A stretch of 64,000 nucleotides of DNA from Holosporales bacterium (GTDB lineage: Bacteria; Pseudomonadota; Alphaproteobacteria; UBA3830; JAIRWN01), in contig JAISFO010000023.1 of the NCBI GenBank assembly GCA_031263535.1, positions 16,516 through 80,515 of the forward strand, read 5' to 3'. A model generated the notes under the pieces. The model made no database searches. It was given only the letters and a program-made list of their open reading frames with translations, and was not told where the DNA came from. The position numbers and the translations under genes were made by a program. Shown here in pieces: positions 9,648-55,053 of the stretch (position 1 is the first letter of the stretch; each line of letters starts with the position of its first letter).

Positions 9648-10211
9648 TTATTTAGATTTTTCTGAAAAGATACAAGATAAGCCAGCCGTTAAATGACCAA
9701 CTCCGCTTACTGCCGTTATAAGCGCAGCACACCACAGGCTTATGATTCCAAGCTGATGTATCTCATGAACACAGCTGCCCAGTGGAACGTCCGCCAATAT
9801 AAGCAGAGTCATAGAGACCATTTGCACAAGTGTTTTGCATTTGGACAGCTTGCTTACAGGAAGCTCTTTATCGACCGTAGCTAAGTATTCTCTTACGCCA
9901 GAGATCAATATCTCTCGCATAACTACTATTATCGCGGGGATCAGCTCAAGGCCGTGTATTTTGCCGATCTCTACTAGCATAAGAATGGTTGAGACGACTA
10001 GCAACTTATCGGCAATCGGGTCCAAAAGCTTACCGAGCCTTGACACTTGCCCCCAACGCCTGGCGATAAAGCCGTCCAAGAAATCTGTCAAGCAAGACAG
10101 CATAAACAGGATCGCGGCGCACCAGCTTGCAAAACTGCCGCGTACATAAAGGCAAACGACTATAGCCGGTATCGACAGAATGCGAAATAATGTTAAAGCG
10201 TTGGGGATCAA
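9648..10211 (-). CDS. pgsA: CDP-diacylglycerol--glycerol-3-phosphate 3-phosphatidyltransferase
   Basis: CDP-alcohol phosphatidyltransferase motif DFLDGFIARRWGQVSRLGKLLDPIADK. TTG start. Lies adjacent to uvrC, as in many proteobacteria. Confidence 0.9.
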   Translation of the reverse strand: MIPNALTLFRILSIPAIVVCLYVRGSFASWCAAILFMLSCLTDFLDGFIARRWGQVSRLGKLLDPIADKLLVVSTILMLVEIGKIHGLELIPAIIVVMREILISGVREYLATVDKELPVSKLSKCKTLVQMVSMTLLILADVPLGSCVHEIHQLGIISLWCAALITAVSGVGHLTAGLSCIFSEKSK

Positions 10212-10233
10212 AATTATATGTTTGTAACCGCAG

Positions 10234-12066
10234 CTAATCTTTATCAGCTTTGCGAAGGTATTTAAAGATATTTTCCGCCAGCTCCTTACCTATACCGCCA
10301 ACTTTTGACAGATCAGCGGCGCTGGCCGCCAGTATATTCTCGACCGAACCAAAATAGGCAAGTAAGTCGCGATGACGCTTACTGCCTATGCCGGGGACGT
10401 CGTCCAGCACAGATTTATGGGCATTACGCCCTCGAGCTTTTCTGTGTGAGGAGATTGCGAACCTATGCGCCTCGTCTCGCAGCCGCTGTAAGAAGTACAT
10501 AAGCGGTGAGTTTTTGCTGACCTCAAGCGCGCGGCCTTCGTAATATATCGTCTCGTCCCCAGCATTACGCTTTATACCTTTGGCGATCGATATCATCTTA
10601 ACGTCACTACAGCTTTCTTTAAGCCTTGTTTGCACAGCGCTAAGCTGGCCTTTCCCCCCGTCTAAGATAATCAAACTCGGCATTTCTTCTTTCAACGAGC
10701 CTGAAAACCTGCGCATCAACATATCGCCCATCATGGCGCAGTCATCCCCGCGCTTTTCCTGCATTTTGAATAATCTGTATGAGCTTTTATTGAATCCTTT
10801 ACCAATCTCATAAATGACCATAGCCCCATAGGCAAAAGTCCCTTGGATATGACTGTTGTCGTATATTTCTATGCGGTTAAGGTCCGATATACCCAACATT
10901 TGACTCAACAGATCGGCAATCGCCGCGTCGTCTTTAAGATCTGGCTTTTTGTTGGACAGACTGTCCTGAGCTTTGATAACCGCGGCCATGACAATACTGC
11001 GCTTACTGCCAAGTTTTGGGGTTTGTATTTTAACTAAACGCCCGGCCCTTTGGCCAACGAATTGCTTTAGCAAAAGCAGATCTTGCGGCTCATGCGAGGT
11101 CAGGATTAAATCTGGCGCTTCGCACGATTGATAGTATTGCTTAATAAACTCGGCCAATATGAATGCGGGCGAGTACTGCTTGGTTAGATCGTTTTCCGAG
11201 ATATTTATAAAGTATGCTTCGTTGTGGCTAAGCTCCCCGTGGCGATAGGCGTTAACCTGAACGCAGCAACCAACCGCAGAAAGCGCCAACCCCAGCACAT
11301 CTAACGACACATTTATGTTTATGCAGATGTTCTGGACGGTCTGAATTTTGGTTAAAAGTCTTATTTGGTCTCTGTAAACCGCGGCTTCTTCAAACCTGAA
11401 ATTATTGCTTGCCATAAGCATCTTGGCGCTCAGCTCTGATCTCAGGCTAAAACTCTGGCCGCCTAGGAATTTAACGATGCTGCGGACGTTTTCGGCGTAT
11501 TCAGCCTCTGATATCCGGCTGCAACAAGGCGCTGAGCAACGCTTGATATGGTATTTCAGGCAAGGCCTGGTTCTTAAAGAAAACGCCCTGTCGGTACATG
11601 TTCTGACCTTAAACGCCGAAGTCAAGAAATCCAGTACCATGGCGGCTTCTCTGCCGGAATAGTACGGCCCAAATCTCCGAGAATCTTGCCCGCTCTCGCT
11701 TTCTCTGAATTTAGCAATACGCGGATATTTATGCTTGGTAACCGCGATGTAGTTATAGTTTTTGGGGGTTTTCAGCAGAACGTTGAATCTGGGGACGTGC
11801 TTGGTTATAAGGCTTGCTTCTAAGAACAGCGCTTCAAGTTCATTTGCGGTTGTCTCGAACTTGACTTTTTCTATCATCGAGACCATTAATTGAAGCCGCT
11901 TTGGCAAAGCATCAAATTGGTAATAGCTCTTGATGCGGTTTCTAATGTTTTTAGCCTTGCCTATATAAATGATCTCATTTTCTTGCGAGATCATCTTATA
12001 AACACCTGGACATCTTGGTGCTTGCTCAATAAAGCGTTTTAAGTTCGAAAGCCCAGCTAAAGTCAC
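10234..12066 (-). CDS. uvrC: excinuclease ABC subunit C
   Basis: 610 aa; GIY-YIG domain (PGVYKM...IIYIGKAKNIRNRIKSYY), UVR domain and C-terminal HhH. GTG start. Confidence 0.95.
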   Translation of the reverse strand: MTLAGLSNLKRFIEQAPRCPGVYKMISQENEIIYIGKAKNIRNRIKSYYQFDALPKRLQLMVSMIEKVKFETTANELEALFLEASLITKHVPRFNVLLKTPKNYNYIAVTKHKYPRIAKFRESESGQDSRRFGPYYSGREAAMVLDFLTSAFKVRTCTDRAFSLRTRPCLKYHIKRCSAPCCSRISEAEYAENVRSIVKFLGGQSFSLRSELSAKMLMASNNFRFEEAAVYRDQIRLLTKIQTVQNICININVSLDVLGLALSAVGCCVQVNAYRHGELSHNEAYFINISENDLTKQYSPAFILAEFIKQYYQSCEAPDLILTSHEPQDLLLLKQFVGQRAGRLVKIQTPKLGSKRSIVMAAVIKAQDSLSNKKPDLKDDAAIADLLSQMLGISDLNRIEIYDNSHIQGTFAYGAMVIYEIGKGFNKSSYRLFKMQEKRGDDCAMMGDMLMRRFSGSLKEEMPSLIILDGGKGQLSAVQTRLKESCSDVKMISIAKGIKRNAGDETIYYEGRALEVSKNSPLMYFLQRLRDEAHRFAISSHRKARGRNAHKSVLDDVPGIGSKRHRDLLAYFGSVENILAASAADLSKVGGIGKELAENIFKYLRKADKD

Positions 12067-12166
12067 GTATCTTCCAACTTATTAATTCGATTGAATTAGT
12101 TATACACACTGCCGTTGTATATCTAAAGCACACACGTATGCCTTGTTTAAGAAATTAGGCGCTGAC

Positions 12167-12196
12167 GCTCTCTGATATTAGGATATTACAGAGAGC
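12167..12196 (-). terminator. hairpin downstream of the orphan inverted LRR gene tail
   Basis: gctctctg / cagagagc forms an 8-bp stem with a 14-nt loop. No strong T-run follows. Confidence 0.3.
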
Positions 12197-12215
12197 AGCC
12201 TTGTTCGATTTTACC

Positions 12216-12310
12216 TACTAATAAGTAATTGTTACATCGGCTGGCTTACCGATTATGTTAACCAATTCCTGACGACTTGTGTGAAGCTTACATGTTGAAG
12301 TACCAGTGCA
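12216..12310. repeat. inverted repeat, left arm (orphan inverted copy of the LRR ORF 3' end)
   Basis: The reverse complement matches 13004-13098 at 83 of 95 positions by hand alignment. On the minus strand it reads CTGTSTCKLHTSRQELVNIIGKPADVTITY*, preceded by an in-frame TGA. Confidence 0.85.
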
Positions 12311-12313
12311 TCA

Positions 12314-13096
12314 GTGCCGAATTTTACAAGACTTAAAACTGGCGGAACCGTCAACTTCCAAGATTGCACAGGTCTCAATGGCCCTGCTCCGGAATTCACT
12401 GCTCTTACGAGTTGCAGGATCATCACTTTTCAAGGCTGTACTGGGTTGACCGGCACTCCAACTTTCCCTGTTTTTGCAAATTTAATAAGCGGAGTCATAG
12501 ACTTCCGGGGCTGTACAGGGTTAACTGAAGCGCCGACTTTCCCAGAATTGCAGAATGCAACTGGGGGTTATAGTAATAACTATATAGACTTCACTGGTTG
12601 TACTAAAATGGTTGGGCAAGCACCAGTTTTTCCTAAACTAACCACCATGAATGGTAATTGGGGCTTTTCTATCGACTTCAGCGGACTTACAGGGTTAACC
12701 GGCGCGCCTTCATTCTCAGCGCTTACGAACTTAAACGGAACTATAAACTTCCAGGGCTGTACAGGACTGAATGGGATAGCTGTTTTCTCTGCTCTTCAAA
12801 CAATAGGCGGAACCATAAATTTCTCTGGCTGCACGAGTTTGGCGGGAATCACGTTAGAGAATTGCACCGTCAGTGCAGGCACTTGGAATGGGATTAATTT
12901 AACCAACACTGGTATCACTACAGTTAACCTCAGCGGCTCTGCATTATCCGGCACTTTGGATATGACAAAGCTTACTAACCTGACGACGCTTATTTTAACT
13001 GGGTGCACTGGTACTTCAACATGCAAGCTTCACGCAAGTCGTCAGGAATTGGTTGAAATAATCAACCAGCCAACTGATGTAACAATCACATATTAG
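12314..13096 (+). CDS. leucine-rich-repeat-like protein with a GCTGL(T/N)G repeat; 5' end doubtful
   Basis: 260-aa ORF with seven copies of (I/V)xFxGCTGLxG spaced about 24-30 aa apart. The only start codon is GTG at 12314, right after an in-frame TGA. No SD and no signal peptide. Confidence 0.55.
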   Translation: MPNFTRLKTGGTVNFQDCTGLNGPAPEFTALTSCRIITFQGCTGLTGTPTFPVFANLISGVIDFRGCTGLTEAPTFPELQNATGGYSNNYIDFTGCTKMVGQAPVFPKLTTMNGNWGFSIDFSGLTGLTGAPSFSALTNLNGTINFQGCTGLNGIAVFSALQTIGGTINFSGCTSLAGITLENCTVSAGTWNGINLTNTGITTVNLSGSALSGTLDMTKLTNLTTLILTGCTGTSTCKLHASRQELVEIINQPTDVTITY

Positions 13097-13098
13097 TA
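13004..13098. repeat. inverted repeat, right arm (last 30 codons plus stop of the LRR ORF)
   Basis: See the left arm. Weaker similarity continues about 20 nt past the stop codon. Confidence 0.85.
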
Positions 13099-13147
13099 AT
13101 TGAAGTAAAGCCGAACAAAACCGCCCCCTCTACGCTATCTTGGTCTT

Positions 13148-13156
13148 GGGGGGGGG
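13148..13156. repeat. G9 homopolymer
   Basis: Counted directly. Confidence 0.95.
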
Positions 13157-13294
13157 ACGTACTTCAATGACGCGTTGCTAAACTTCTTACTTAATTCGCT
13201 TGAATGCTTATGGATATAGAATTACAAACTTTCAATTTCCACATTAACCCAATTTAAAAGATCGATATCGCATAATTGATAGCTAAAGCTTTAT

Positions 13295-13303
13295 CCCCCC
13301 CCC
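13295..13303. repeat. C9 homopolymer abutting the stop codon of ORF 13303..13635
   Basis: Counted directly. Complementary to the G9 tract 138 nt upstream. Confidence 0.95.
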
Positions 13304-13635
13304 TAAAGATCATTGCTTCTGCATATTTTGATTTGTGATATTCTGCTGTCGCCAAGGAATGAGTTGATTTTGTCTAGTAGGATTGATGAACTGTATTGCG
13401 CTTCGATCAGCTTAGTGCTTTTGGCTTTAATATACAAAACCAACCCGTTCTCGTTAGCTAGTTTTTCTGGCCAGGTAAACTCGCTTAAGCACTCGCCAAC
13501 GATCTCTTTCCAATAGATATAAAGATCAGAAAACATCAGCCCTTTCTTTTTCATTATTGGCTGGCAAATGCTGTAAGCCAAATCGCACAGACGTACAGGT
13601 TTGTTGATGCGCTTTATATTGCTGAGCTTAGGCAT
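13303..13635 (-). CDS. DUF721 domain protein (DciA-like)
   Basis: 110 aa. Pattern YWKEIVGECLSEFTWPEKL..NGLVLYIKAKSTKLIEAQYSSSILLDKINSFLG fits the DUF721 consensus as I remember it (W..IVG..L...T.P..L..G.L.......A.EL....IL..IN). Confidence 0.55.
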   Translation of the reverse strand: MPKLSNIKRINKPVRLCDLAYSICQPIMKKKGLMFSDLYIYWKEIVGECLSEFTWPEKLANENGLVLYIKAKSTKLIEAQYSSSILLDKINSFLGDSRISQIKICRSNDL

Positions 13636-13640
13636 TCGGG

Positions 13641-14567
13641 CTAATTAAATGTGCCCGCGGTCTCGCCGGATTTTATGACTTTCTCAGCCCCGGTATATAT
13701 AAGCATCGGGGCAGCCAAGCATATGGAGGAAAATGTTCCAACAACGATGCCAAACAAAATCGGCATACTGAATGAGGCAATTACTTCTCCGCCGAATAAA
13801 TACAAGATAAGTAAAGCCAGCACAGTAGTGGCAGACGTCAGGATAGTACGAGATAGCGTCTCGTTAATGCTTTTGTCGATTATTTCGGTAAGATTTTTAT
13901 TATTCAGCTTGCGCATGTTCTCACGTATACGGTCGAATATGACGACAGCGTCGTTTATCGAGTATCCCATGACGGTAAGTATGGCTATCAGCGCGTTTGT
14001 ATTAAACTCAAACGAGTGAAATATACCATAAAACCCAAGTGTAGCCAGACCGTCGTTTAGCAAGCTTAAAATGCCACAAACTGCAAACTGCCACTCAAAC
14101 CTAAACCAGATGTAAATCAATATAAGAAGCAAAGAGACTATGCCCGCGTAGATACCATCAGTAACCAGCTCTTGGCCTATCTGAGGGCCAACTGACTCTA
14201 CCCGGCGGTACTCTATGTCACCAAGGGCAGATTTTATCTTTCCAAGCATAGCTTCCCGGTCTTTAGGTGACGACAGCCCAGTATCGCTTATGCGTATAAG
14301 CACATCATTGCCGGATCCTAGTCCTTGCAGGGTTACGCTGCCAAAATCTAACTTAGAAAGATTTTCTCGCATCGCCCCGATGTCCGGCTTTTCGTGTGAT
14401 CTTACTTCAAGCAAATACCCGCCCTTAAAGTCGATGCCATAATTGACGCCGCGTATAGTAAGCGACAAAACGGACACCAACGCTAACAGTCCGAAAATGG
14501 CAAAGGTTATAAACCTGCTTTTAATAAAACCAATCTTAGTGTCATGCGGTATTAAAATTAAGTTCAA
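13641..14567 (-). CDS. secF: protein translocase subunit SecF
   Basis: 308 aa with six TM segments, downstream of secD. TTG start. Confidence 0.9.
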   Translation of the reverse strand: MNLILIPHDTKIGFIKSRFITFAIFGLLALVSVLSLTIRGVNYGIDFKGGYLLEVRSHEKPDIGAMRENLSKLDFGSVTLQGLGSGNDVLIRISDTGLSSPKDREAMLGKIKSALGDIEYRRVESVGPQIGQELVTDGIYAGIVSLLLILIYIWFRFEWQFAVCGILSLLNDGLATLGFYGIFHSFEFNTNALIAILTVMGYSINDAVVIFDRIRENMRKLNNKNLTEIIDKSINETLSRTILTSATTVLALLILYLFGGEVIASFSMPILFGIVVGTFSSICLAAPMLIYTGAEKVIKSGETAGTFN

Positions 14568-16252: not shown

Positions 16253-17419
16253 TTAACTGTCCTTAAACTCATAGATACGCCTGTGCTCAGTTATGCCTTT
16301 TAACCTCAATCCACCTTTGCTGTAAGCCGGCGTTAGAATATCCGCGCCACGGTAATCGTTCCAAAAATCATAAAACTCACGGAACTTATCGAAATTTATT
16401 ACCGTCCTAGAGGCCAGTGCTTTCTGAATCGATTTTGATAGCGGTTCTATATATTGCTTATACCCATTTTGCACGATTCCTGAGAAAAATTCACCTACAC
16501 TGCCAGATCCATAAGCAAACATGCCCACTCGTTTGCCAGAAGCGTCTCTGTCAGGGCTACCCAACATTGACAGCAAACAAACGTAAAGCGCCGCGGTGTA
16601 ACAATTGCCTATATATGGGGTATAGCGCAGGGTGCTGTTAACTTTTTCATTGCAGTCAACTTCGTTTAATCTGGCCAGCTCATTATGAGCCTTAATCGCC
16701 ATCTTAGAAAACGGCGTGTGGTAACAAACATGATCTATATCGGTAAAGCTCAACCCTGATTGCCTTTTATAATTATTCCAAGCATTGCCCAGGTGGCTAA
16801 GGTACAGCTGTATTGAACGCTTTCCGTCAACAAACGCTACCTCTGAATAGCATGGTCGCCAAAAATCATCTTCATCTGCGCTCCAAACGCCGGAATATGG
16901 CTCGATTTCCATTATTCTGGGATTGGCAGATACAATCATAGCTACGCTGCCGCAGCCTTGGGTAGGCTCACCCGGAGTACCAGAGCCGTACTTGGCAATG
17001 TCGGAAGCTATGACTAGTGCTTTCAGCTTTGGATCTGATCCAATCATCGATACGCTAAGCTGCAAAGCCGCTGAACTTGCATAGCACGCTTGTTTAAGTT
17101 CAAACACTCGGCAATCAGGGTTGAGTTTCAAAAACCGATGCAAGTATATACCGGCAGACTTTGACTGATCCACGCCTGTCTCAGTTGCGAAAATTAACAG
17201 CCTTATGCTTTCAATATCATCACGGCTACATAGTGCCTGTTTGGCTGCACCATAGCCAAGGGTGACAACGTCCTCGTCCGGCGGGGCAACCGAAATCTGC
17301 TTTTGCATCAGGCCATGTTCGTACTTGGCTGGGTCGATTTTATGCCGCTTGGCCAATTCGCTAAGCTGAAAAACATATTCAGCTGTCTGAAAGCCAATTG
17401 AATCAATCCCTATTTTCAT
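16253..17419 (-). CDS. mvaS: hydroxymethylglutaryl-CoA synthase
   Basis: Start MKIGIDSIGF. Catalytic-site contexts TETGVDQSKS, KQACYASSAAL (Cys), CYHTPFSKM (His) and GNCYTAALY are present. The ORF track starts at 17434, but the ATG at 17419 fits family N-termini. Overlaps the upstream reductase gene by 17 nt. Confidence 0.85.
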   Translation of the reverse strand: MKIGIDSIGFQTAEYVFQLSELAKRHKIDPAKYEHGLMQKQISVAPPDEDVVTLGYGAAKQALCSRDDIESIRLLIFATETGVDQSKSAGIYLHRFLKLNPDCRVFELKQACYASSAALQLSVSMIGSDPKLKALVIASDIAKYGSGTPGEPTQGCGSVAMIVSANPRIMEIEPYSGVWSADEDDFWRPCYSEVAFVDGKRSIQLYLSHLGNAWNNYKRQSGLSFTDIDHVCYHTPFSKMAIKAHNELARLNEVDCNEKVNSTLRYTPYIGNCYTAALYVCLLSMLGSPDRDASGKRVGMFAYGSGSVGEFFSGIVQNGYKQYIEPLSKSIQKALASRTVINFDKFREFYDFWNDYRGADILTPAYSKGGLRLKGITEHRRIYEFKDS

Positions 17420-18518
17420 ATCCGCAGTTTCCATAGAGTTTGGCGTTTCTTTCTATTCTTATATGGCTTTTGGTTAGCTCACCAGGATTGGTTTGCGCAG
17501 CCATTAATGACAGCTCTCCGCACAGGACCGCCGCCGCGATTATCTCAGCCAAACGTCGTGATTTAGCGCCAAGCTCATCCCCTTCCTTATGAAGGCATCC
17601 CATAATATCGAGGTTCTTTTCTACAAAGGGAATGTGCTTGCCGTTACCGACAACGCCCACTATCAAATTTGGCAAAGTAACCGAGAATACTAAGCCGTCA
17701 CCAGCTGTGTCCAAGGATGCGCAAGTAATCCCCTGCGATCCTTCGACTATGTTGGCAGCGTCTTGACCCGTTGCAAGATATATCGCAAGAAGCATGTTGG
17801 CATAGTGCGCATTCGCGCTTGCCAGACTGCCGGCAGCTATGCTTCCGATAAGGTTTTTCTTGTTATTCAAGTCAACTATCGCTTGAGGTGAGGTTTTAAG
17901 CACATCTCGGCAGATACTGGCAGAAATACATGCTTCGGCCACTACATATTTACCTCTGCCAAGTATGCTGTTTACGGCCGATGCCTTTTTGTCAGTGCAG
18001 TAGTTGCCAGATATAGATACATACTTGGCGTATTTGTGGTTTTTTATCACCCAATCTAAAACAGCCTCAGCCGCTATAGTGGTCATGTTATGACCAGAGG
18101 CGCCTGCTGTTGTCATGGATATCCGAATATAAGCCAGTCGACCTATAAAACGAAAATCTATCCCTTTAAGGGACACAAACCGCCCAGTTGCGGCAACAAG
18201 CTGCTCAAGCAAAGAATATTGGCCTAAAAGCGAATCTTTTAGTTTAAGCAGATCTGATATTTGGTCGACTTCAACGACTACTGACCTGGTCATAAAATCG
18301 CTGATCAAAACGGTGCGGATACCTCCCGCCAGGTTACAGGCCTTGCTCCCTCGTTGTGACGAATACCAAAGCGGCGCTTCAAACGTTGCCATTGGCACAT
18401 ACGATTCAAATGTAGAGGCGGTTGAGTCTATAATTTTGATTGGCCCCACTGTGCGCATAGGGATGCAAGCGCTGTCTGCCTTGGTTTTATCAAAATCAAT
18501 CGACATTTTTGTGCTCAA
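17403..18518 (-). CDS. class-I-like hydroxymethylglutaryl-CoA reductase, divergent
   Basis: 371 aa, colinear with the class I catalytic domain: VPMAT.E, MTRSVVV, SGNYCTDKKASAVN, NAHYAN, GQDAANIVE, GELSLMAA, KSH. Remembered cofactor and substrate motifs are altered (see findings). Confidence 0.75.
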   Translation of the reverse strand: MSTKMSIDFDKTKADSACIPMRTVGPIKIIDSTASTFESYVPMATFEAPLWYSSQRGSKACNLAGGIRTVLISDFMTRSVVVEVDQISDLLKLKDSLLGQYSLLEQLVAATGRFVSLKGIDFRFIGRLAYIRISMTTAGASGHNMTTIAAEAVLDWVIKNHKYAKYVSISGNYCTDKKASAVNSILGRGKYVVAEACISASICRDVLKTSPQAIVDLNNKKNLIGSIAAGSLASANAHYANMLLAIYLATGQDAANIVEGSQGITCASLDTAGDGLVFSVTLPNLIVGVVGNGKHIPFVEKNLDIMGCLHKEGDELGAKSRRLAEIIAAAVLCGELSLMAAQTNPGELTKSHIRIERNAKLYGNCGYENRD

Positions 18519-29729: not shown

Positions 29730-29900
29730 TTATAAAGCAAGCGATCTAAGACAGCGCCAAGATTTAGTCAATAATTTTCTTCAAAACTTTCATTAACCAA
29801 AAGCTAAAATTTATTCAATTTTGGATTAATTTTTGACTAAAATTTACTCAATATTAATAAATAATTGTCAAAATTAATTAAAGGTCAATTAGAGCTTAAT

Positions 29901-31283
29901 ATGAAAAAAACAGCTATATTAATTTTGTTATGTTTAGGTTATTGCAATGAATCAAACTGTACTTTACCATCTAGGCAAAATGCATTTGAAGTAGAAACGC
30001 AAATGGCTTTTCCTCGCCTTATTGCGCCCCCCGTTGATCAACAGTTATTTGATGTACAAACTCCGGTTTACAGCCGTGATACTTCAAATATAGCAACACC
30101 TCGTGCCACATTGACGGCGCCTGTGCGCCTAATTTCGGCAAGCCCTAGCGCACCATCTCCAAATACGCTTAGGTTATTACCGAGACTTGGTGATGAGGGG
30201 CGTGCAGCATCATTGGATATTGCGCCTTCACCTTTATTACCTGATGCAATTTTGCCGGCTTTTGCACCGATAATACCTGTAAAGCAGGTTAGAATTTTAG
30301 CCATCGATGGCGGGGGTGGCAGAGGGGTAATTCCAGGATATGAGCTTACAAGGCTGGAGGAGGCTACCGGGTATCCAGTTTCGGATATGTTCCATATGGT
30401 GTCGGGCACGTCGACTGGCGGAATAATTGCCTTGTCCCTTACCATGAGGAATCCAGAAATCCCAGGCAGGCCATTACATTCGGCGCATGATATTTTGACG
30501 ATGTATCAGCACGAAATGTCAGGATTCTTTGTCAAGAAGAGGTTCAGCTTTGGCGGCGCTTTTAGGACTAAGTATAAAAGTAGATATTTGTACAGTAAAT
30601 TAATGGGCAAATTCGGAAACGCCCTGTTTTCCGACTCATTAAACGATGTGATAGTACCTTGTTATGACGCCGAAAGGGGATATCCGAAAATATTCAAGAG
30701 TTATAGGGCGGTTACAAATCCTCTTTACGATTTCTTCGCCTACGATATAGCGCGTGGTACATCGGCTGCTCCTTCTTTTTTTAAGCCTGCGAAGATTGTA
30801 AGCCAAGCGAATCAGCTTGGCGAAACGCGAATTCACGTGCTGATAGACGGCGGCGTGTTGGCAAATGATCCGACTATGTGCGCTTTTGCAGAGGCAAAAA
30901 AAAGATATCCGCTGGCGGATGAATTTTTCATTCTATCGTTAGGGACAGGGCGTTCTCATACCCCGCTTTTATATGACGATTCTCAAAGTATGAGGGGATA
31001 TAATTGGGCGACTGCTTTTCCGGATATAAGCATAGACTCATCTGCTGCGACTGTTGATTATCAGATGTCTGTTTTTGCAGATGCAGATCCGGCTATAAAG
31101 TATTTTAGGTTTCAACCAACTTTGCCAGCCGACATATCCAGAATGGATGATACTTCTAGAGAAACTATACGTAGATGGACATATCATGCTGAAGAGCAGG
31201 TCCATTTGCCGCAGTTTAACGAAGTGATCAGTATTCTGTCTATACCTAAAACTCCTTTAGATGAATTGATGCGGGTGGATTAA
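29901..31283 (+). CDS. patatin-like phospholipase, exported
   Basis: Oxyanion hole DGGGGRG, nucleophile elbow GTSTGG and catalytic DGG. N-terminal hydrophobic leader MKKTAILILLCLGYC followed by a Pro-rich linker. ATG at 29901 preferred over 29865. Confidence 0.85.
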   Translation: MKKTAILILLCLGYCNESNCTLPSRQNAFEVETQMAFPRLIAPPVDQQLFDVQTPVYSRDTSNIATPRATLTAPVRLISASPSAPSPNTLRLLPRLGDEGRAASLDIAPSPLLPDAILPAFAPIIPVKQVRILAIDGGGGRGVIPGYELTRLEEATGYPVSDMFHMVSGTSTGGIIALSLTMRNPEIPGRPLHSAHDILTMYQHEMSGFFVKKRFSFGGAFRTKYKSRYLYSKLMGKFGNALFSDSLNDVIVPCYDAERGYPKIFKSYRAVTNPLYDFFAYDIARGTSAAPSFFKPAKIVSQANQLGETRIHVLIDGGVLANDPTMCAFAEAKKRYPLADEFFILSLGTGRSHTPLLYDDSQSMRGYNWATAFPDISIDSSAATVDYQMSVFADADPAIKYFRFQPTLPADISRMDDTSRETIRRWTYHAEEQVHLPQFNEVISILSIPKTPLDELMRVD

Positions 31284-34380: not shown

Positions 34381-35727
34381 CTACTCTCCAGCGTACCTGT
34401 TGATTCTGTCCAAAAGCTGAGACAAACGTTTGTGTAGTTGCTTAAGGCCGGTGTCTATTGGCTTGTGCCCCGCTATCATACTGTGGACTGAGTTAAAAAT
34501 TTCTGTACTGGCCTGGCTGTAAAGTGAGCCAAACTGAGATGACGGCCTTACGACCATGTGATCCAACATATCGCTGAGTTTGGCGAAGAATGGTTGAGCT
34601 TGAATCATGGCTTTATCCTTATACAGATTTGGTCTAGACGGAGATATGCCGCCCTCAATTGCCCGACGTCTTTGCTCTTTGTGAGAAGTCAGGTATCGCA
34701 AAAACGCCACGGCTTCTTTAGGATGTTTTGAGAATTTCGATATACCCAGCGACCAACCGCCCAAAATCCCAACGTGCCGACCTCCTGGCCCTATCGGCAA
34801 TGGAGCTACATCGACTTTGCCAGCTAAGGGGCAATCAGGCGAGCTTAATAGTGCAAAAGCGTATGGCCAACTGCGCATAAACACGGCGTTACCAGACTGA
34901 AACACGCCTCTGGCTTCTTCTTCTGTGTATCCAAGTACGCCGGAGGGCGCTACGGCGCCAATCCATTTATATATCATATTTAGCATACGCCGATTGGACG
35001 GCGTATCGACTGCCAGCTTGCCTTTATTATCCATTATCCCACCGCCAGCAGAACAGAACCACTCGACAACGTTAACGGTCAGCCCTTCATAGGACTTCCC
35101 TTGAAACACATACCCCCACATTCTGGAATTGCCGTTTGCGCGCTCTTTATCCTGAATGTCGGTTGCTATTTTTTCCAGATCATCCCAAGTTTTTGGGACA
35201 CTGTGGCCATATTTCTCAAGCAGATCTTTGCGGCAGTATAATATCCCCATGTCTATGTACCAGGGAATGGCGACCAGCTGACCGTCAATCGTGTTATTTG
35301 CTATACAAACTTGGAAAAATTCGGGAATTTCGCCTTTAAAGTATTCTTTCAGATCAATGAGGTAGCTCGCCAATATGCCTGGCCAAGTAACGTCGATAAT
35401 CAAGATATCAAGGTCCTGGGATTCTGCCCGTAAAAGCTGTAAATACAGGTTCAGCCGCTCATTGCTTTCATTTGGCAGGGTGATTATTTCAACGCGATGC
35501 CCAGTTAAAGCTTCCCATTCCTTTGCCGCTTGCTGATAGAGCTCTAGCTCACGCCCCTTACACCCGCAAGTTACTTTCAGGGTAACCTCCTGAACATCGG
35601 CATCTAGCGACGATTTATCGTCTTTATGCTCTGCAGTCGGCTGTTCATCGGATAAGTCGATGCCGAAGGATTCTGCGGACAACAAGGCCACAATACACAT
35701 GACCAATGTTCTTAGACTTTTTTTCAT
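34381..35727 (-). CDS. carbohydrate ABC transporter substrate-binding protein (CUT1 type)
   Basis: 448 aa with a signal peptide and family-1 solute-binding protein architecture (DILIIDVTWPGILASYLIDL). Confidence 0.88.
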   Translation of the reverse strand: MKKSLRTLVMCIVALLSAESFGIDLSDEQPTAEHKDDKSSLDADVQEVTLKVTCGCKGRELELYQQAAKEWEALTGHRVEIITLPNESNERLNLYLQLLRAESQDLDILIIDVTWPGILASYLIDLKEYFKGEIPEFFQVCIANNTIDGQLVAIPWYIDMGILYCRKDLLEKYGHSVPKTWDDLEKIATDIQDKERANGNSRMWGYVFQGKSYEGLTVNVVEWFCSAGGGIMDNKGKLAVDTPSNRRMLNMIYKWIGAVAPSGVLGYTEEEARGVFQSGNAVFMRSWPYAFALLSSPDCPLAGKVDVAPLPIGPGGRHVGILGGWSLGISKFSKHPKEAVAFLRYLTSHKEQRRRAIEGGISPSRPNLYKDKAMIQAQPFFAKLSDMLDHMVVRPSSQFGSLYSQASTEIFNSVHSMIAGHKPIDTGLKQLHKRLSQLLDRINRYAGE

Positions 35728-35760
35728 AGATTTCTGTTCACAAATCGTGTCGAAGGCGTC
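35615..35760. repeat. inverted repeat, left arm (native 5' region of the binding-protein gene)
   Basis: The reverse complement matches 35975-36120 at 134 of 146 positions by hand alignment. Covers 33 nt of leader, the ATG and the first 37 codons. Confidence 0.9.
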
Positions 35761-35974
35761 AAAAGCCTAACCAATTACCTACACCAGAGCTTGCTTTATT
35801 GCAACTATAGAAAAGCAATAATACACGCCAAACGCCATAGAAGCTGTATCAATGTTATCCAATTTAGCATGATCAGGGCTTAGAAGCAGGTAATTATTGA
35901 GTAAAGTATTTTGTTTTATTTAAAAAAATGGTACATTTTGCCAGAATTATTTAGGTTTTGTTAATTAGGCTTAT

Positions 35975-36120
35975 GATACCTTCGACACGACTTATGGACA
36001 GAAATCTATGAAAAAAAGTCTAAGAACATTGGCCCTGTGTATTGTGGCCTTGTTGTCTGCAGAATCCTTCGGCATCGACTTATCCAATGAACAGCCGACT
36101 GCAGAACACAAAGATGATAA
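35975..36120. repeat. inverted repeat, right arm (inverted duplicate of the binding-protein gene 5' region)
   Basis: See the left arm. The 214-bp spacer 35761-35974 lies between the arms. Confidence 0.9.
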
Positions 36121-36156: not shown

Positions 36157-37362
36157 GTGGTGCAAATAGAAAAGACATGGGGGGGGGGGCCTAACCCTCT
36201 CTTTGGCACTAGTACTGAGGGGCAATCTTGCCCTGAACTAGGTGCTAGATATTGGGATGATTATGTTTTTGAAGAAGCCGGCACTAGCTTTAAGTTATCT
36301 TTGGATAGAGTGCATAACTTTAAATTTAGTAACGGTTTTAATCTAAGAAGAGCTCAGTTCGAAGAACTGGCAATCGAGGAAGCTATTCAAGCTTCCGAGC
36401 CTTGCGTTAGCAAGCCCAAACTGGGCCTATCTAGAATACAGATCGCTGGCCGTTCAAATTTTTATGATCTATTTGACAAATTTGCATCAATGTTGTTTAT
36501 GGCCTCATCGATAACATTTTTATCCGGATGCTCAAGTCCAAATAAAGATTCCTTTCGCCCGCATTTGTATCTAGGTGTGACCAGTAATTATTCAGACTCA
36601 AATGCTACCCTAGAGCCAAAGTACTTCGTGCCTGGCTTGGTTATAGGGGATTTCGTAAGTGGTGGTTTCTTAGTAGGGCGTAATGGGGTTGTTACTGTTC
36701 CTGATGCGGCAGGGGCTGTTCCTGCTCGGCCTTTCAACCAAAACGGTATTGTGCTTGGCGGTATAGATGGAAATTTAGCCACAAAAAACTCAGGAATCGG
36801 TACTGGCGCAATAGTTGGCTTAGAGATGAAAGTTTTTAAGTTGCGAATGTCCTTAGAGGCTGATTGTTCCAATATAAACTACGGAAAGGATAAGCAAAAA
36901 GACAATCTGTTTGAGAAATTTTCTTTTGGGTTGTCGTACAGACTTGGCTTAAAACTAGGTAACTATTTCACGCCATATTTGCTTGCTGGAGTAGAGTTCA
37001 GTACCTTCAAGGGACGCGGTGAAAATCCGCACTTTAGGGATAGCGGAGATTATACCACTGATCCAAACGGTGCAGGCAGGACAGTCTATCGTAGTATTGA
37101 TAGGCTTTTTTACAATATAGAGAGCAGCAAGATGATTCAAAGTCCACGATTGGGCTGTGGATTTGAGATAAGCTTTTTTGAGCGTTTTAAATTTAGATTT
37201 GATGCGTTTTGGACTTTAAAGAGAAGATTTGCTGGTAAGTTCAGAACAGATACTGTGGCACCAGTGGGGGTGGGTTTTGATCCATCCTATGGCGCCGATG
37301 CTATCATGACCTGGTATCACAAGAAATTCTCCACTCGCTTCGGCATCATTATGGATTTGTAG
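36157..37362 (+). CDS. outer-membrane beta-barrel / lipoprotein-like protein, paralog 1 (start uncertain)
   Basis: 401-aa ORF. From residue 112 (ATG 36490, MLFMASSITFLSGCSS) it is colinear with ORF 40382..41233. The first 111 codons are unrelated and contain the G11 tract. Confidence 0.6.
   Translation: MVQIEKTWGGGPNPLFGTSTEGQSCPELGARYWDDYVFEEAGTSFKLSLDRVHNFKFSNGFNLRRAQFEELAIEEAIQASEPCVSKPKLGLSRIQIAGRSNFYDLFDKFASMLFMASSITFLSGCSSPNKDSFRPHLYLGVTSNYSDSNATLEPKYFVPGLVIGDFVSGGFLVGRNGVVTVPDAAGAVPARPFNQNGIVLGGIDGNLATKNSGIGTGAIVGLEMKVFKLRMSLEADCSNINYGKDKQKDNLFEKFSFGLSYRLGLKLGNYFTPYLLAGVEFSTFKGRGENPHFRDSGDYTTDPNGAGRTVYRSIDRLFYNIESSKMIQSPRLGCGFEISFFERFKFRFDAFWTLKRRFAGKFRTDTVAPVGVGFDPSYGADAIMTWYHKKFSTRFGIIMDL
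36179..36189. repeat. G11 homopolymer in the 5' region of ORF 36157..37362
   Basis: Counted directly: g36179-g36189. Confidence 0.95.
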
Positions 37363-37870
37363 GCTGCCGGCAGGTCGAAAAGTACCTCTGGATTAGTCTA
37401 TTTGGGCTTGCTAAAGCAAGGCTCGGAAGCCTGAATGGCTTACTCGATTGCCGATTCTGCGAATCGAGCTTTGCTCAAATAAAAATCATTACTTGATCTA
37501 GAATTGTAAAGCTTATCTAGACGATGAGTCGGTGCGATTTTATAAATGCCCAAGCAAACTCTACTTCCAGTCTGATGTGACGCAGCAGGCCCGATTGTCA
37601 GTTCTACGAACCGAACTTTATCTAGGTAAAATTATAGCTTGGTCTAAAATCAAAGTCTTATCCAAATAAGAACAGTTACAGTTTACCAGCTCTACGAACC
37701 GAGTTTTTTCTGAATTGAAATCATTATAGACAGATTAGGCTTTTATCAAAAATGATTGCTATAACCCAGCTACAAAGTGTATATCTAGGCTCAAAGAGAC
37801 CATTGAGAGGAAGATGAAGTGGGCGCAAGTACTGGTTTGTTGTTTGTTGGCCGAAGGTGAAGTGGTTGGT

Positions 37871-48971: not shown

Positions 48972-49592
48972 ATGAAAAAGATTATAATAACATCAGTGGT
49001 AGCATTGCTTATCCCTGAAATCGCAAATTGTATGCGAAGAACTGATTCTTACAAAGAATGCAGAGTTGACAATACGTTGCTTGAAAACTGTATGCGATTT
49101 ACCTTAGACGGAGCTGATTATTACCAAAAAGGCAAAGTTGTTAAGGTTACCGCTTCCTTTTACCCCAGTAGGATTCTTACAAGAGATCGAATTTGTATAG
49201 GTGGAGAGGTCTATGGAGTATTATATGCGCTAGCAAAAAATGGTCGTAATACAGCAAGTTCTGGATCCGTATACTTTCCGTCTAGTATAGAGACGATCGG
49301 CATTGAATGTTTTCGCAATGCTCTTCGAGATGCGTTGTCATTCATAATCTTTGAGCAAAACTCACATCTGAAAAAGATCGGATATGATGCCTTTTCTGGG
49401 TGTGCTTCTCTGGTATCTATATGCATTCCGTTCAGTTTAGAAACTATAGGAGAAAAGTGTTTTTTAAACTGCCGCAGTCTAAGCAGCGTAACGTTTGAAT
49501 CAGGCTCTCGATTGGCAGATATCGGAAAAGACGCCATTCCTGCAGAAACCGTAGTTAACGGGTGTCCTTTTCCTATACCAGGAAGGGAATAA
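48972..49592 (+). CDS. BspA-type leucine-rich repeat protein, exported
   Basis: 206 aa with leader MKKIIITSVVALLIPEIANC. Repeats of the type SICIP.S.E.IG..CF..C.SLS...FESGS.L..IG..AF. Confidence 0.8.
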   Translation: MKKIIITSVVALLIPEIANCMRRTDSYKECRVDNTLLENCMRFTLDGADYYQKGKVVKVTASFYPSRILTRDRICIGGEVYGVLYALAKNGRNTASSGSVYFPSSIETIGIECFRNALRDALSFIIFEQNSHLKKIGYDAFSGCASLVSICIPFSLETIGEKCFLNCRSLSSVTFESGSRLADIGKDAIPAETVVNGCPFPIPGRE

Positions 49593-49918: not shown

Positions 49919-50908
49919 ATGAAAAAGATTGCAATGATAGCATCGGCAATTACGCTGCTTGTCCCTGAAATTGCAAGTTGTGGGCGAGTTGCAAATCCTG
50001 GGTATATTATAGATAGAACTTCTTACCAAGAGGATGGAAGCGGAGGTGTTAGCGCCAGATCGGCAGCTACAGGTCCCACTTGGCTCCTTAGAAATATCAT
50101 TAGTATAGGTGGGGAAGTTTGTGAGGTGCGTACATTAAATGGCTTTAATACGTTTGATGGTGGTGGTAGGCATAGCTTGCGATCCATATGCATTTCAGCA
50201 AGTATAAAAACGATCAGCGAAAAATGTCTTGAGCTTTGCGACAGTCTAACCGTAACGTTTGAATCAGGCTCTCGACTGGAAACGATCGAAGAATTCGCCT
50301 TTCGCTATTCTTATCTGGCTTCTATATGCATTCCATCCAGTGTAGAGATGCTTGGCAGTGCGAGTTTTGTTGGATGCCAAAGTTTAAGCAGCTTGATGTT
50401 TGGATCGGGCTCAAAACTGAAAACAATATCAGGCTTCGCCTTCAATAGATGTTCTTCTCTGGCATCTATATGCATTCCGTCCAGCGTAGAGAGGCTTGGC
50501 AACGTAAGTTTTGTGGAATGCCGCAGCCTAAGCAGATTAACGTTTGGATCAGGCTCTCGAATAAGAACGATCGAAGAAGGGGCCTTTTCCGGATGTTCTT
50601 CTCTGGCATCTATATGCCTTCCGTCTAGCTTAGAAAGGGTCGAGGGAAAGTGTTTTAAAGATTGTACCAGTCTAATCATCGTAGAGTTTAAGCCTAACTC
50701 TCAACTGAAAACGATAGGAAGCTTTGCCTTTAGCGGTTGCTCTTCTTTGGCATCTATATGGCTTCCATCCAGTGTAGAAAGGATCGAGGAGGGATGTTTT
50801 GAAGGATGCGGCAGTCTAAGCATCGTAGAGTTTGAGCCTGGCTCTCAACCGATAACGATTGAAGAAGGCGCTATTCCTGAAAGCGTTGAGACTGTGGGTT
50901 TAGATTAA
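49919..50908 (+). CDS. BspA-type leucine-rich repeat protein, exported
   Basis: 329 aa with leader MKKIAMIASAITLLVPEIASC and five 46-48-aa double LRR units (SICIPSSVE.LG..SF..C.SLS.L.FGSGS.L.TI...AF..CSSLA). Confidence 0.85.
   Translation: MKKIAMIASAITLLVPEIASCGRVANPGYIIDRTSYQEDGSGGVSARSAATGPTWLLRNIISIGGEVCEVRTLNGFNTFDGGGRHSLRSICISASIKTISEKCLELCDSLTVTFESGSRLETIEEFAFRYSYLASICIPSSVEMLGSASFVGCQSLSSLMFGSGSKLKTISGFAFNRCSSLASICIPSSVERLGNVSFVECRSLSRLTFGSGSRIRTIEEGAFSGCSSLASICLPSSLERVEGKCFKDCTSLIIVEFKPNSQLKTIGSFAFSGCSSLASIWLPSSVERIEEGCFEGCGSLSIVEFEPGSQPITIEEGAIPESVETVGLD
50183..50896 (+). repeat. tandem coding repeats, five units of 138-144 bp, inside the second LRR gene
   Basis: Units start at 50183, 50321, 50465, 50609 and 50753, each beginning tc(c/t)atatg(c/g)(a/c)tt. 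Confidence 0.85.
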
Positions 50909-53931: not shown

Positions 53932-55053
53932 ATGGTCAGATGCATAAGGTGGCTCTTGGTGCGGATAGTTTTTGTTATCTCATCGCTTGGATCAGGAGGT
54001 GCGGAGAGGGTCCTTTCAGGGCTGGCCAACCATTTTGTAACGAAAAACAACGAAGTGTCGATTGTAACTTTCTCTCCCGCAGGGACGGTTCCTTTTTATC
54101 CGCTCGACCCAAACATAAACCTAATACAGCTGGATCAACTTAGGGAAGACACTTTTTGCCTAAAGCGTTTAAAGAATATCGCTAAACGCACATTTTGCCT
54201 AAGAAAAGCGCTAAAAGCCTTGGCCCCAGACCTGGTGATTTCTTTTGTAGAAGTTACAAATATCACCACTTTAATTGCTAGCATAGGTCTTAAGGTACCA
54301 GTCGTTGTGTCCGAGCGCATTTTCCCTGGCGATCATCATATTCCCAGAATCTATCAATGGTTACGTACACTATTTTATCCAAGAGCTTCCAAAGTTGTGG
54401 TTCAAACGGAATCTGCTAAAAACTATTTTTACTATCTTAATAATGTAAGCGTAATACCAAACGCAGTACTAATTCCTAACTTCACAAAAAAACACGTATC
54501 TTCAGCAGTATGTAGCATAATATCAGTTGGGCGATTATGTAGCCCTCAGAAAGACTTTGAAACTTTGGTTAAGGCATTTAGCAGACTGGTCACCAAATAT
54601 CCTGGGATCCACTTAACCATCTATGGTGATGGAGATGATAGGGTTAACCTTGAGAATCTTATAACTTCCCTAGATCTTCAAGATAAGGTTTTCTTGCCTG
54701 GCGTTACTTCCGATGTGTATGGCGTTCTGCAAAAAGCAGATATGTTTGTTTTTCCATCGCGCTACGAAGGCTTTCCCAACGCTTTGTGTGAGGCTATGGC
54801 GGTCGGCCTTCCGGTTATTGCATCTAATTGCTCAGGCAATATCGACGTTGTGAGGGATAAAATCGACGGTCGACTGTTTACAGTAGGAAACGTAGATGCT
54901 TTAACCAGCCTAATGATTGAATTAATTGAGGACCGCGAACAAAGACAGCGCCTGTCCGGCAACGCAAAACAAATAGTGACCAGGTTTAATTCAGACGAGA
55001 TATTCGCAATGTGGGATCAGGTAATTAATGAGGCCGCAAACCTTTGTAATTAA
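53932..55053 (+). CDS. glycosyltransferase family 4
   Basis: 373 aa; N-terminal SSLGSGGAERV and a C-terminal EX7E-type region FPSRYEGFPNALCEAMAVGLPVIAS. Confidence 0.85.
   Translation: MVRCIRWLLVRIVFVISSLGSGGAERVLSGLANHFVTKNNEVSIVTFSPAGTVPFYPLDPNINLIQLDQLREDTFCLKRLKNIAKRTFCLRKALKALAPDLVISFVEVTNITTLIASIGLKVPVVVSERIFPGDHHIPRIYQWLRTLFYPRASKVVVQTESAKNYFYYLNNVSVIPNAVLIPNFTKKHVSSAVCSIISVGRLCSPQKDFETLVKAFSRLVTKYPGIHLTIYGDGDDRVNLENLITSLDLQDKVFLPGVTSDVYGVLQKADMFVFPSRYEGFPNALCEAMAVGLPVIASNCSGNIDVVRDKIDGRLFTVGNVDALTSLMIELIEDREQRQRLSGNAKQIVTRFNSDEIFAMWDQVINEAANLCN

What the first reader, a model, noticed from the sequence alone, without database searches (positions are those of the whole stretch)
12167..13118. 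LRR-like ORF bracketed by 95-bp inverted repeats; the left arm is an orphan inverted copy of the gene's own tail
12216-12310 is the reverse complement of 13004-13098 (83/95 identical), with weaker similarity for about 20 nt beyond. The right arm encodes the last 30 codons plus the stop of the ORF (CTGTSTCKLHASRQELVEIINQPTDVTITY*). On the minus strand the left arm keeps frame and stop but encodes a variant tail (CTGTSTCKLHTSRQELVNIIGKPADVTITY*). It is preceded by an in-frame TGA and followed by its own hairpin (12167-12196). The ORF body starts exactly at the inner edge of the left arm. It has only a GTG start, no SD and no signal peptide. Recombination between the arms would invert 12311-13003 and rejoin the same body, in frame, to the alternative tail on the other strand. 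This is the geometry of an inversion switch or of a past inversion between two paralogs. No recombinase gene is nearby, so a homologous-recombination event or a relic is equally possible.
Basis: partly seen in the sequence, partly recalled or inferred. Interest (0 to 1): 0.6.

Follow-up and report, generated by a model that had tools for sequence, protein, structure and literature searches.

The report
Truncated LRR gene with orphan tail
The inverted repeat is real, but it is most likely a rearrangement scar in an uncultured Holosporales genome: the last quarter of a giant leucine-rich-repeat gene lies next to the leftover 3' end of a sister copy, and nothing points to a working DNA-inversion switch.

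Summary
The arms are 12216-12310 and 13004-13098, 83/95 identical (blastn E 1e-28). Both keep frame and stop, each has its own hairpin, and an in-silico inversion rejoins body and alternative tail in frame.

The switch reading is not supported.
- A profile search found a 1142-aa family member. The 260-aa ORF matches only its last 252 residues (60% identity), so the ORF is a 5'-truncated fragment that starts inside an LRR unit.
- The orphan tail is closer to the tails of other family members than the ORF's own tail is, and its hairpin is kept with compensatory-type changes. This suggests the 3' end of a once-functional paralog rather than a copy of this gene's tail.
- In a relative with 86-87% nucleotide identity, homology stops at about 12134-12153 and 13290-13309. 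No LRR piece is present there, and the uvrC and dciA flanks lie on different contigs. The block therefore sits at a synteny breakpoint.
- The longest exact run between the arms is 20 nt. No recombinase was found in the window ORFs scanned. The one independent contig shows the same left junction.
- The window also holds another orphan inverted gene end and split pseudogenes.

A rare RecA-mediated flip or a cassette role cannot be excluded without long reads.

The parts
12154..13290 (.). Block with no counterpart in the close relative. It sits between the uvrC-side and dciA-side syntenic segments, at a synteny breakpoint.
   Evidence: Window against L014: homology covers 8159-12134, possibly up to about 12153. 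Window against L017: homology covers 13309-13907, with weak similarity back to about 13290. tblastn finds no LRR piece in L014 or L017.
12157..12201 (-). Hairpin following the orphan tail (core stem 12167-12196). It is terminator-like but lacks a clean T-run.
   Evidence: RNA folds of -17.6 to -17.8 kcal/mol, z = -2.1. The consensus terminator scan did not call it.
12216..12310 (-). Left arm: orphan 3' end of an LRR-family gene. It holds 30 codons, TAG at 12220-12218 and 2 nt, and is preceded by an in-frame TGA at 12313-12311.
   Evidence: tblastn of P0250 residues 1112-1141 hits 12310-12221 at 77% identity.
12311..13003 (+). Segment between the arms. It is the LRR 'body', about 8 repeat units of roughly 24 aa with the motif xxFxGCTGLxGxAPxF, followed by the start of the conserved C-terminal module.
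   Evidence: Direct-repeat families D1-D3, alignments A2/A3, AF2 solenoid model.
12314..13096 (+). 260-codon ORF with a GTG start. It is a 5'-truncated fragment equal to the last 252 residues of the 1142-aa family member P0250.
   Evidence: ORF list. P0250 890-1141 aligns with window 12350-13093 at 60.5% identity, E 3e-68. No N-terminal part of P0250 is found anywhere in the window. No identical protein appears in the protein collection.
13004..13098 (+). Right arm: the last 30 codons, TAG (13094-13096) and 2 nt of the ORF.
13121..13156 (+). Hairpin after the ORF (C5TC...G7 stem). Its 3' half is the G9 run at 13148-13156. A T-rich stretch follows it on the minus strand, so it may also terminate dciA transcription.
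   Evidence: Folds of -18.3 kcal/mol. Homopolymer list.
10234..12066 (-). Left flank gene uvrC. It is on the same strand as the orphan tail and lies downstream of it.
   Evidence: Pfam UvrC domains. Identical protein P0121/P0241 (MDR1031915.1), Holosporales MAG.
13303..13635 (-). Right flank gene dciA (DUF721), convergent with the LRR ORF.
   Evidence: Pfam DciA, E 2e-9. P0249 = MDR1031917.1.

Best explanation
The locus is a rearrangement or deletion scar in a family of very large LRR proteins found so far only in a few uncultured Holosporales MAGs.

Inferred history: two paralogous genes once lay in opposite orientation. Each ended in the same conserved C-terminal module and its own terminator hairpin. 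One was on the minus strand directly upstream of uvrC. The other was on the plus strand, convergent with dciA. An illegitimate event removed the first gene except for its last 30 codons and hairpin, together with the head and first three quarters of the second gene. Most simply this was a deletion of everything between a point in each gene. An inversion or a remodelled inverted duplication is also possible.

What remains is [hairpin'-tail'(-)] abutting [last 8-9 LRR units + C-terminal module + tail + hairpin (+)]. The 95-nt inverted repeat is therefore leftover paralog homology, not a recombination site.

Shown: the repeat, the truncation relative to a 1142-aa homolog, the synteny break, and the absence of a recombinase among the ORFs scanned. 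Inferred: the order and type of the events, and that the ORF is no longer a working gene.
For: 1. Truncation. A profile search with the C-terminal module found P0250 (1142 aa, N-terminally partial, module at 1039-1141, E 4.5e-48). The window ORF aligns only with residues 890-1141 (60.5% identity). Nothing in the 64-kb window matches P0250 1-570. The ORF starts inside a repeat unit, has only GTG and no SD-like motif, and has an in-frame stop 5 codons upstream. The first 20 residues of the AF2 model have low confidence while the rest is a confident solenoid.

2. The orphan tail looks like a paralog's end. It is 23/30 and 24/30 identical to the tails of P0250 and P0251, against 21/30 for the ORF's own tail. 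It still shares the unique 'STC' with the ORF tail. Both copies keep a hairpin of similar stability with different stem sequences, CTCTCT/AGAGAG against CCCCCT/GGGGGG.

3. Synteny breakpoint. In the relative (UvrC 87%, DciA 91% identical), the uvrC flank continues into a different block and phaC (L014). The dciA flank continues into a 548-aa gene of a different kind (no Pfam match, no similarity to the LRR ORF; L017). Neither locus has an LRR piece.

4. Poor recombination substrate. Identity is 83/95, the longest exact run is 20 nt, and dS between the arms is about 0.29.

5. No recombinase or transposase among the window ORFs scanned, and no tRNA.

6. An independent Logan contig is 100% identical to window 8163-12986, so it shows the same left junction and orientation.

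7. Genome context. The window holds another orphan inverted gene end at 35965-36120, a split DUF4015 gene, and a tandem paralog copy that appears split, judged from the ORF list alone. In another metagenome an SDR fragment is fused to the last 72 aa of this LRR family (P0252). Broken copies of the family therefore occur elsewhere.
Against: - The 260-codon frame is intact and the AF2 model is confident (pLDDT 86.8). The fragment is therefore either recently truncated or still expressed.
- The arms are most alike at their inner ends: 49/51 identical, then 34/44. This is what a crossover zone followed by distinct tails would look like, although it also matches the conserved CTGT..KLH.SRQELV protein motif.
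- dN/dS of 0.38 between the arms is not the neutral value. It rests on only 12 differences.
- The three C-module copies retrieved from this MAG (this ORF, P0245, P0246) all begin inside the LRR array. That could mean something systematic rather than decay. Gene calling after upstream stops could also produce it, and I could not get their DNA.
- No read-level data were available, so orientation heterogeneity was not tested.
- NCBI protein accessions leave exactly one number between UvrC and DciA. Some CDS may therefore be annotated here, and I could not identify it.
Confidence: 0.72

Rival explanations
1. Occasional, unprogrammed RecA-mediated inversion between the arms. The segment can flip at low frequency by homologous recombination in the inner 51 nt. 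This gives two isomers with slightly different C-terminal tails and no dedicated function.
For: The geometry is exact and in frame. The inner 51 nt are 96% identical, with two 20-nt exact runs. The family shows signs of paralog exchange: the ORF and P0001 of the same MAG share 37 of 38 residues across NTGITTVNLSGS..LILTGCTGT although they are 55% identical overall.
Against: The longest exact run (20 nt) is below the roughly 23-27 bp usually quoted as needed for efficient RecA recombination in E. coli (background knowledge). Overall divergence of 13% argues against repeated exchange, which would homogenise the arms. The only independent contig has the window orientation.
Confidence: 0.12
2. Programmed inversion switch (partial-intergenic inverton or shufflon-like). 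A site-specific recombinase encoded elsewhere flips the body between two alternative 3' ends.
For: Inverted repeats bracket a coding segment, and both outcomes are in frame with their own stop and hairpin. Invertases can act at a distance, and gene-overlapping invertons are widespread (10.1101/2023.03.11.532203).
Against: No recombinase was found in the window ORFs scanned. The invertible part would carry no promoter, no ATG and no SD. The two products differ in only 5 of 30 residues of a C-terminal cap. The ORF is a truncated quarter of the full protein. The locus is absent in the closest relative.
Confidence: 0.04
3. Silent-cassette reading. Headless 3' copies of the LRR gene, including this ORF and the orphan tail, are donor cassettes. 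They would be copied by gene conversion into an expressed full-length gene, as with pilS, msp2 or vls systems.
For: The C-module copies retrieved from this MAG lack a head (window ORF; P0245, 241 aa; P0246, 178 aa). One head-plus-LRR gene without the module exists (P0007, 434 aa). A near-identical stretch is shared between two of the paralogs. The Logan contig ends at 12986, inside that shared stretch.
Against: Headless ORFs are also what gene callers report after upstream stops or contig ends. I could not obtain DNA of the other copies. The paralogs are only 55-66% identical, and no conserved 5' anchor was seen. P0007's N-terminal part does not resemble that of P0250.
Confidence: 0.05
4. Assembly artefact: a chimeric join in a metagenome-assembled contig.
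For: The source is a MAG. LRR paralogs break assemblies: P0004 lies at a contig end, and the Logan contig ends at 12986.
Against: The arms differ at 12 positions, so they are not one sequence used twice. The left junction is reproduced base for base in the separately assembled Logan contig. No shared k-mer at 12310/12311 could mislead an assembler.
Confidence: 0.03

Closest known systems
Gene remnants at rearrangement or deletion junctions in host-associated, reductively evolving bacteria
   Same: A 5'-truncated ORF without a start context lies next to an orphan gene end. The block sits at a synteny breakpoint and is absent in a close relative. Other split genes and an orphan gene end lie nearby.
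   Different: The truncated frame is still fully open (260 codons). The two leftovers happen to be paralogous 3' ends in inverted orientation, which mimics an invertible element.
Partial-intergenic invertons and shufflons (R64 shufflon, phage Mu G segment, type I hsdS inversion systems; surveyed in 10.1101/2023.03.11.532203)
   Same: Inverted repeats lie inside coding sequence, and inversion would exchange the C-terminal end of a protein in frame.
   Different: In those systems the constant 5' part and the promoter lie outside the invertible DNA, and the alternative 3' ends lie inside. The repeats are short and near-identical, and an invertase is usually adjacent (background knowledge). Here the body is inside and the tails outside, the arms are 13% diverged, and no invertase was found.
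Campylobacter fetus sap locus (RecA-dependent inversion between oppositely oriented S-layer gene homologs; background knowledge)
   Same: Oppositely oriented paralog segments could recombine without a site-specific enzyme.
   Different: In sap the conserved regions are long and essentially identical 5' ends, and the invertible segment carries the single promoter. Here the homology is 95 nt at 87% at the 3' ends, and no promoter is evident between the arms.
BspA-type leucine-rich repeat proteins (Pfam LRR_5, PF13306)
   Same: The repeat is about 24 residues with a Cys-containing motif. Many distant homologs carry PF13306. The predicted structure is an LRR solenoid, and weak fold matches include BACOVA_04585 (4fs7).
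   Different: The ORF scores below the Pfam thresholds (LRR_5 14.1 bits against 27.7; LRR_EndoS 23.4 against 27.9). The conserved C-terminal module was found at E <= 1e-30 in only 4 cluster representatives out of 1.84 billion. The N-terminal 570 residues of P0250 have no Pfam match.

Membership tests
Site-specific invertible element (inverton / shufflon) | Inverted repeats flanking the invertible DNA | tested here: met
   Arms of 95 nt, 83/95 identical, 693 nt apart.
Site-specific invertible element (inverton / shufflon) | A serine or tyrosine recombinase, usually adjacent | tested here: not met
   No recombinase, integrase or transposase domain in the window ORFs scanned against Pfam. The rest of the genome was not available.
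Site-specific invertible element (inverton / shufflon) | Both orientations present in a population | not testable with these tools
   No reads are available. The only independent assembly (Logan contig L016) has the window orientation at the left junction and stops 18 nt before the right arm.
Site-specific invertible element (inverton / shufflon) | Inversion changes expression or product in a meaningful way (promoter, or constant 5' part joined to alternative 3' parts) | tested here: not met
   No promoter-like site on the plus strand upstream of or inside the segment. The start is GTG without an SD-like motif. The products would differ at 5 of 30 tail residues, and the ORF is a truncated fragment.
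RecA-dependent inversion systems (C. fetus sap type) | Long, near-identical homologous regions in inverted orientation | tested here: not met
   95 nt at 87% identity, with a longest exact run of 20 nt.
Truncated gene / pseudogene fragment | Covers only part of full-length homologs, with the homology boundary at a non-homologous junction | tested here: met
   The ORF equals residues 890-1141 of the 1142-aa P0250. Homology stops at the arm edge, and no head is present in the window.
Truncated gene / pseudogene fragment | Loss of expression signals or of expression | tested here: inconclusive
   There is no ATG, no SD-like motif and no predicted promoter. Only about 41% of genes here show an SD-like motif. 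No identical protein is in the collection, but one unidentified NCBI accession lies between UvrC and DciA. No transcript data exist.
BspA-type LRR (Pfam PF13306 LRR_5) | Score at or above the Pfam gathering threshold | tested here: not met
   LRR_5 scores 14.1 bits against a cut-off of 27.7, E 0.044. Many distant homologs do carry PF13306.
LRR solenoid fold | Repeating beta-strand and loop solenoid | tested here: met
   AF2 model with pLDDT 86.8 and pTM 0.84, and regular short strands. All top PDB matches are LRR proteins, with low TM-scores.
Diversity-generating retroelement (TR/VR pair) | Differences between the two copies confined to adenines of one copy; reverse transcriptase nearby | tested here: not met
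   My reading of the 12 mismatches listed: they involve all four bases in both copies. No reverse transcriptase was found in the window ORFs scanned.

The most novel reading that the evidence does not exclude
The headless 3' copies of a giant LRR protein gene in this Holosporales symbiont, including this ORF and the inverted orphan tail, could be a recombination reservoir. Cassettes would be exchanged by inversion or gene conversion with an expressed copy. That would give an intracellular alphaproteobacterium a pilS-, sap- or msp2-like variation system built on an LRR protein. The G/C homopolymer tracts seen at these junctions might play a role in it.
Probability: 0.05. Interest if true: 0.7.

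Novelty: new member of a known kind. Interest (0 to 1): 0.2.

Why it matters
As a scar, the locus is a caution for genome scans: two leftover paralog ends in opposite orientation can imitate an in-frame invertible element very closely. It also marks a recombination-prone family of very large LRR proteins with no Pfam-recognised domains. The family was found only in a few uncultured Holosporales MAGs, and one of these relatives comes from a Glyptotermes termite-gut data set. Such proteins are plausible host-interaction factors, and their fragments coincide with synteny breaks between close relatives. If the minority reading (a flip or cassette exchange) were true, it would be a new route to surface or effector variation in an obligate symbiont.

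Tried and rejected
- Genome and metagenome scans with the family alignment returned only one true relative (L002, which is the same place as L001) plus generic LRR genes. The source MAG is not in those collections.
- Exact look-ups of the paralogs P0001, P0003, P0245, P0246 and P0007, and of the window's 610-aa UvrC and 110-aa DciA, found no contig. I could therefore not see whether other copies have the same inverted-repeat layout.
- Exact look-ups of the ORF and its alternative starts or overlapping ORFs found nothing. Some of those queries began with L or V because of non-ATG starts, so they are not conclusive.
- Rfam found nothing in 11900-13400, even at E <= 1.
- The consensus promoter and terminator scan was no better than shuffles.
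- DGR reading rejected: the mismatches are not adenine-specific (my reading).
- Assembly chimera rejected: the arms are diverged and the junction is reproduced in the Logan contig.
- Insertion of a mobile cassette with a target duplication: only a 7-nt CTAAAGC occurs near both block edges (my reading), which could be chance. In the relative the two flanks are not adjacent, so this could not be assessed.
- Looked for shared sequence between the unique intergenic pieces and the corresponding pieces of the relatives. Only a 13-nt TATC9T match turned up.
- The PDB fold search gave only generic LRR matches with low TM-scores.

Full report
**Observation**

The inverted repeat is real. The repeat finder gives arms 12216-12310 and 13004-13098, 95 nt, 87% complementary, 693 nt apart. 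blastn gives E 1.5e-28, and a direct count gives 83/95 with a longest exact run of 20 nt. Similarity runs about 30 nt beyond both stop codons, up to two different hairpins. These hairpins lie at about 12157-12201 and 13121-13156, at -17.6 and -18.3 kcal/mol.

The right arm is the last 30 codons plus TAG of ORF 12314-13096 (260 aa, GTG start). The left arm on the minus strand encodes a 25/30-identical tail with its own TAG and a TGA directly before it. An in-silico inversion of 12311-13003 joins the body in frame to the other tail.

**What the ORF is**

It is an LRR protein. Pfam gives only sub-threshold hits to LRR_EndoS and LRR_5. Distant homologs often carry PF13306. AlphaFold2 with a 5-sequence alignment gives a confident solenoid (pLDDT 86.8, pTM 0.84). 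The last 30 residues are well packed and the first 20 are poorly defined. PDB matches are generic LRR proteins.

Only four proteins in the 5.8-billion set share the conserved C-terminal module, all from Holosporales MAGs or JGI metagenomes. The window itself is a Holosporales MAG: UvrC is identical to MDR1031915.1 and DciA to MDR1031917.1. P0245, P0246 and P0007 are paralogs from the same MAG.

The key result comes from a profile of the C-terminal module searched against 1.84 billion representatives. It found P0250, 1142 aa and still N-terminally partial, with the module at its very end. The window ORF aligns only with P0250 890-1141 (60.5% identity). Nothing in the window matches P0250's first 570 residues. 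The ORF is therefore the 3' quarter of a very large gene. It is cut inside a repeat unit exactly where the left arm ends.

**What the orphan tail is**

It shares the unique 'STC' with the ORF's tail. It also keeps the residues seen in P0250 and P0251 (KLHTSRQELVNII, KPADVTI) that the ORF's tail has changed. Identities are 23-24/30 for the orphan tail against 21/30 for the ORF's own tail.

Its hairpin differs from the ORF's hairpin by changes that keep pairing, CTCTCT/AGAGAG against CCCCCT/GGGGGG. This suggests two paralogous 3' ends that each functioned for some time. It argues against a dead copy of this gene's tail made at the moment of rearrangement. dN/dS between the arms is 0.38, from only 12 differences.

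**Comparative context**

- A relative (UvrC 87%, DciA 91%; about 86-87% nucleotide identity) was recovered as two contigs from one JGI sample.
- On the uvrC side (L014), homology with the window ends at about 12134-12153. It is followed by a C11 tract, a 93-nt repeat element, small ORFs and phaC.
- On the dciA side (L017), homology ends just after the dciA stop. It is followed by a convergent 548-aa gene of a different kind, with no Pfam match and no similarity to the LRR ORF.
- Neither contig has any LRR-family sequence. Block 12154-13290 is therefore specific to the window genome and sits at a synteny breakpoint.
- A second relative is Gsp477_bin58, from a Glyptotermes termite-gut data set according to PMC11707648. 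It is 83% identical at cysS-gltX. It has a family member upstream of uvrA at a contig end.
- A Logan contig from SRR14710921 is 100% identical to window 8163-12986. It shows the same left junction and orientation. It ends inside the stretch that the ORF shares almost perfectly with paralog P0001, which points to a paralog-induced assembly break and not to an inversion junction.

**Switch or scar**

Against a switch:
- No recombinase or transposase in the window ORFs scanned, and no tRNA.
- The arms are 13% diverged.
- No promoter, ATG or SD-like motif for the body in either orientation.
- The alternative products differ by five residues.
- The body is a truncated fragment, and the locus is absent from the nearest relative.

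For some residual possibility:
- The frame is intact.
- The inner 51 nt of the arms are 96% identical.
- The C-module copies retrieved from this MAG all look headless. I could not obtain their DNA to tell decay from design.

The simplest history is two divergently oriented paralogs and a deletion that left the tail and terminator of one and the 3' quarter of the other. An inversion or a remodelled inverted duplication would give the same picture.

**Genome habit**

The same window holds an orphan inverted copy of the first 38 codons plus 43-45 upstream nt of a solute-binding-protein gene (35615-35770 and 35965-36120, 92%). A 105-nt inverted repeat brackets an outer-membrane-protein gene. A DUF4015 gene is split, and one tandem paralog copy appears split, judged from the ORF list alone. 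Elsewhere, an SDR fragment is fused to the last 72 residues of this LRR family (P0252). Fragmentation and rearrangement are therefore common in these genomes.

**Verdict**

The switch interpretation is not supported, and the relic interpretation is favoured at about 0.7. The locus is ordinary in kind, a gene remnant at a rearrangement junction, although the LRR family itself is undescribed. Interest is 0.2.

Noticed in passing
window 35615-35770 and 35965-36120: Second orphan inverted gene end: a 156-nt inverted repeat (92%) with a 194-nt spacer. The left arm is the first 38 codons plus about 43 upstream nt of the ABC solute-binding gene 34381-35727(-). The right arm is a stand-alone copy that reads MKKSLRTLALCIV...KDDNLILR* and then stops. 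The only promoter-like sites in the spacer point to the left gene.
   Followed up: partly
window 36316-36420 and 37401-37505; L014 9694-9786: A roughly 105-nt element with an invariant core CGAGCCTTGC(G/T)TTAGCAAGCCCAA brackets, in inverted orientation, an outer-membrane beta-barrel gene. That gene has a lipobox-like LSGC motif, and I infer its true start is near 36490 by comparison with the paralog at 40382. A third copy lies in the relative directly upstream of uvrC, at the spot where the window has the LRR block.
   Followed up: partly
window 13148-13156 (G9), 13295-13303 (C9), 36179-36189 (G11); L014 9142-9150 (G9), 9834-9844 (C11); L001 920-928 (C9): G/C homopolymers of 9-11 nt occur only in intergenic DNA next to the rearranged spots. 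My rough estimate of the chance expectation is about 0.1 per 64 kb at 44% GC. The same 13-mer TATC9T occurs after dciA in the window and between the LRR gene and uvrA in L001. No explanation was tested.
   Followed up: partly
window 8178-8293 (-): A lone 5S rRNA gene (72.5 bits) with no 23S rRNA beside it. Homology with the relative L014 and the Logan contig both start right next to it (8159 and 8163).
   Followed up: no
window 55025-55768 and 55765-56091 (-): A DUF4015 glycosyl-hydrolase-like gene is split into two overlapping ORFs (profile positions 96-313 and 8-88). It is probably a frameshifted pseudogene.
   Followed up: no
window 3492-7995 (-): Three tandem paralogs (period about 1.5 kb) of a roughly 470-aa protein with no Pfam match and N-termini that look like signal peptides. 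The third copy appears split into 6659-7489 and 7537-7995.
   Followed up: no
window 48972-49592 and 49919-50908 (+): Two BspA-type LRR genes with N-termini that look like signal peptides and 144-nt internal repeats. This family is distinct from the LRR ORF of the finding. In L001, LRR_5-annotated genes occupy the corresponding position upstream of cysS-gltX, a segment that is syntenic with the window.
   Followed up: partly
window 16253-17434 and 17403-18518 (-): HMG-CoA synthase (assigned from its sequence) and HMG-CoA reductase (Pfam), two mevalonate-pathway genes, lie next to secDF in this alphaproteobacterial symbiont. The relative's contig L014 carries a DXP synthase gene.
   Followed up: no
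window 29865-31283 (+) and 59529-60497 (+): A patatin-like phospholipase and a Fic-domain protein. Both are candidate host-interaction factors.
   Followed up: no
P0252 (157 aa, from the representative library); L017 912-2558 (-): P0252 is a short-chain dehydrogenase fragment fused in frame to the last 72 residues of the LRR family, which is another junction involving this family. The 548-aa gene downstream of dciA in the relative shares a 50-residue N-terminal motif (ATYPxLLNS...) with the giant LRR protein P0250, at 50% identity.
   Followed up: partly
window 12067-13302 (annotation): NCBI protein accessions for UvrC (MDR1031915.1) and DciA (MDR1031917.1) leave exactly one number between them. 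Yet no protein identical to the LRR ORF, or to the overlapping ORFs I tried, is in the 15-billion-protein collection.
   Followed up: partly
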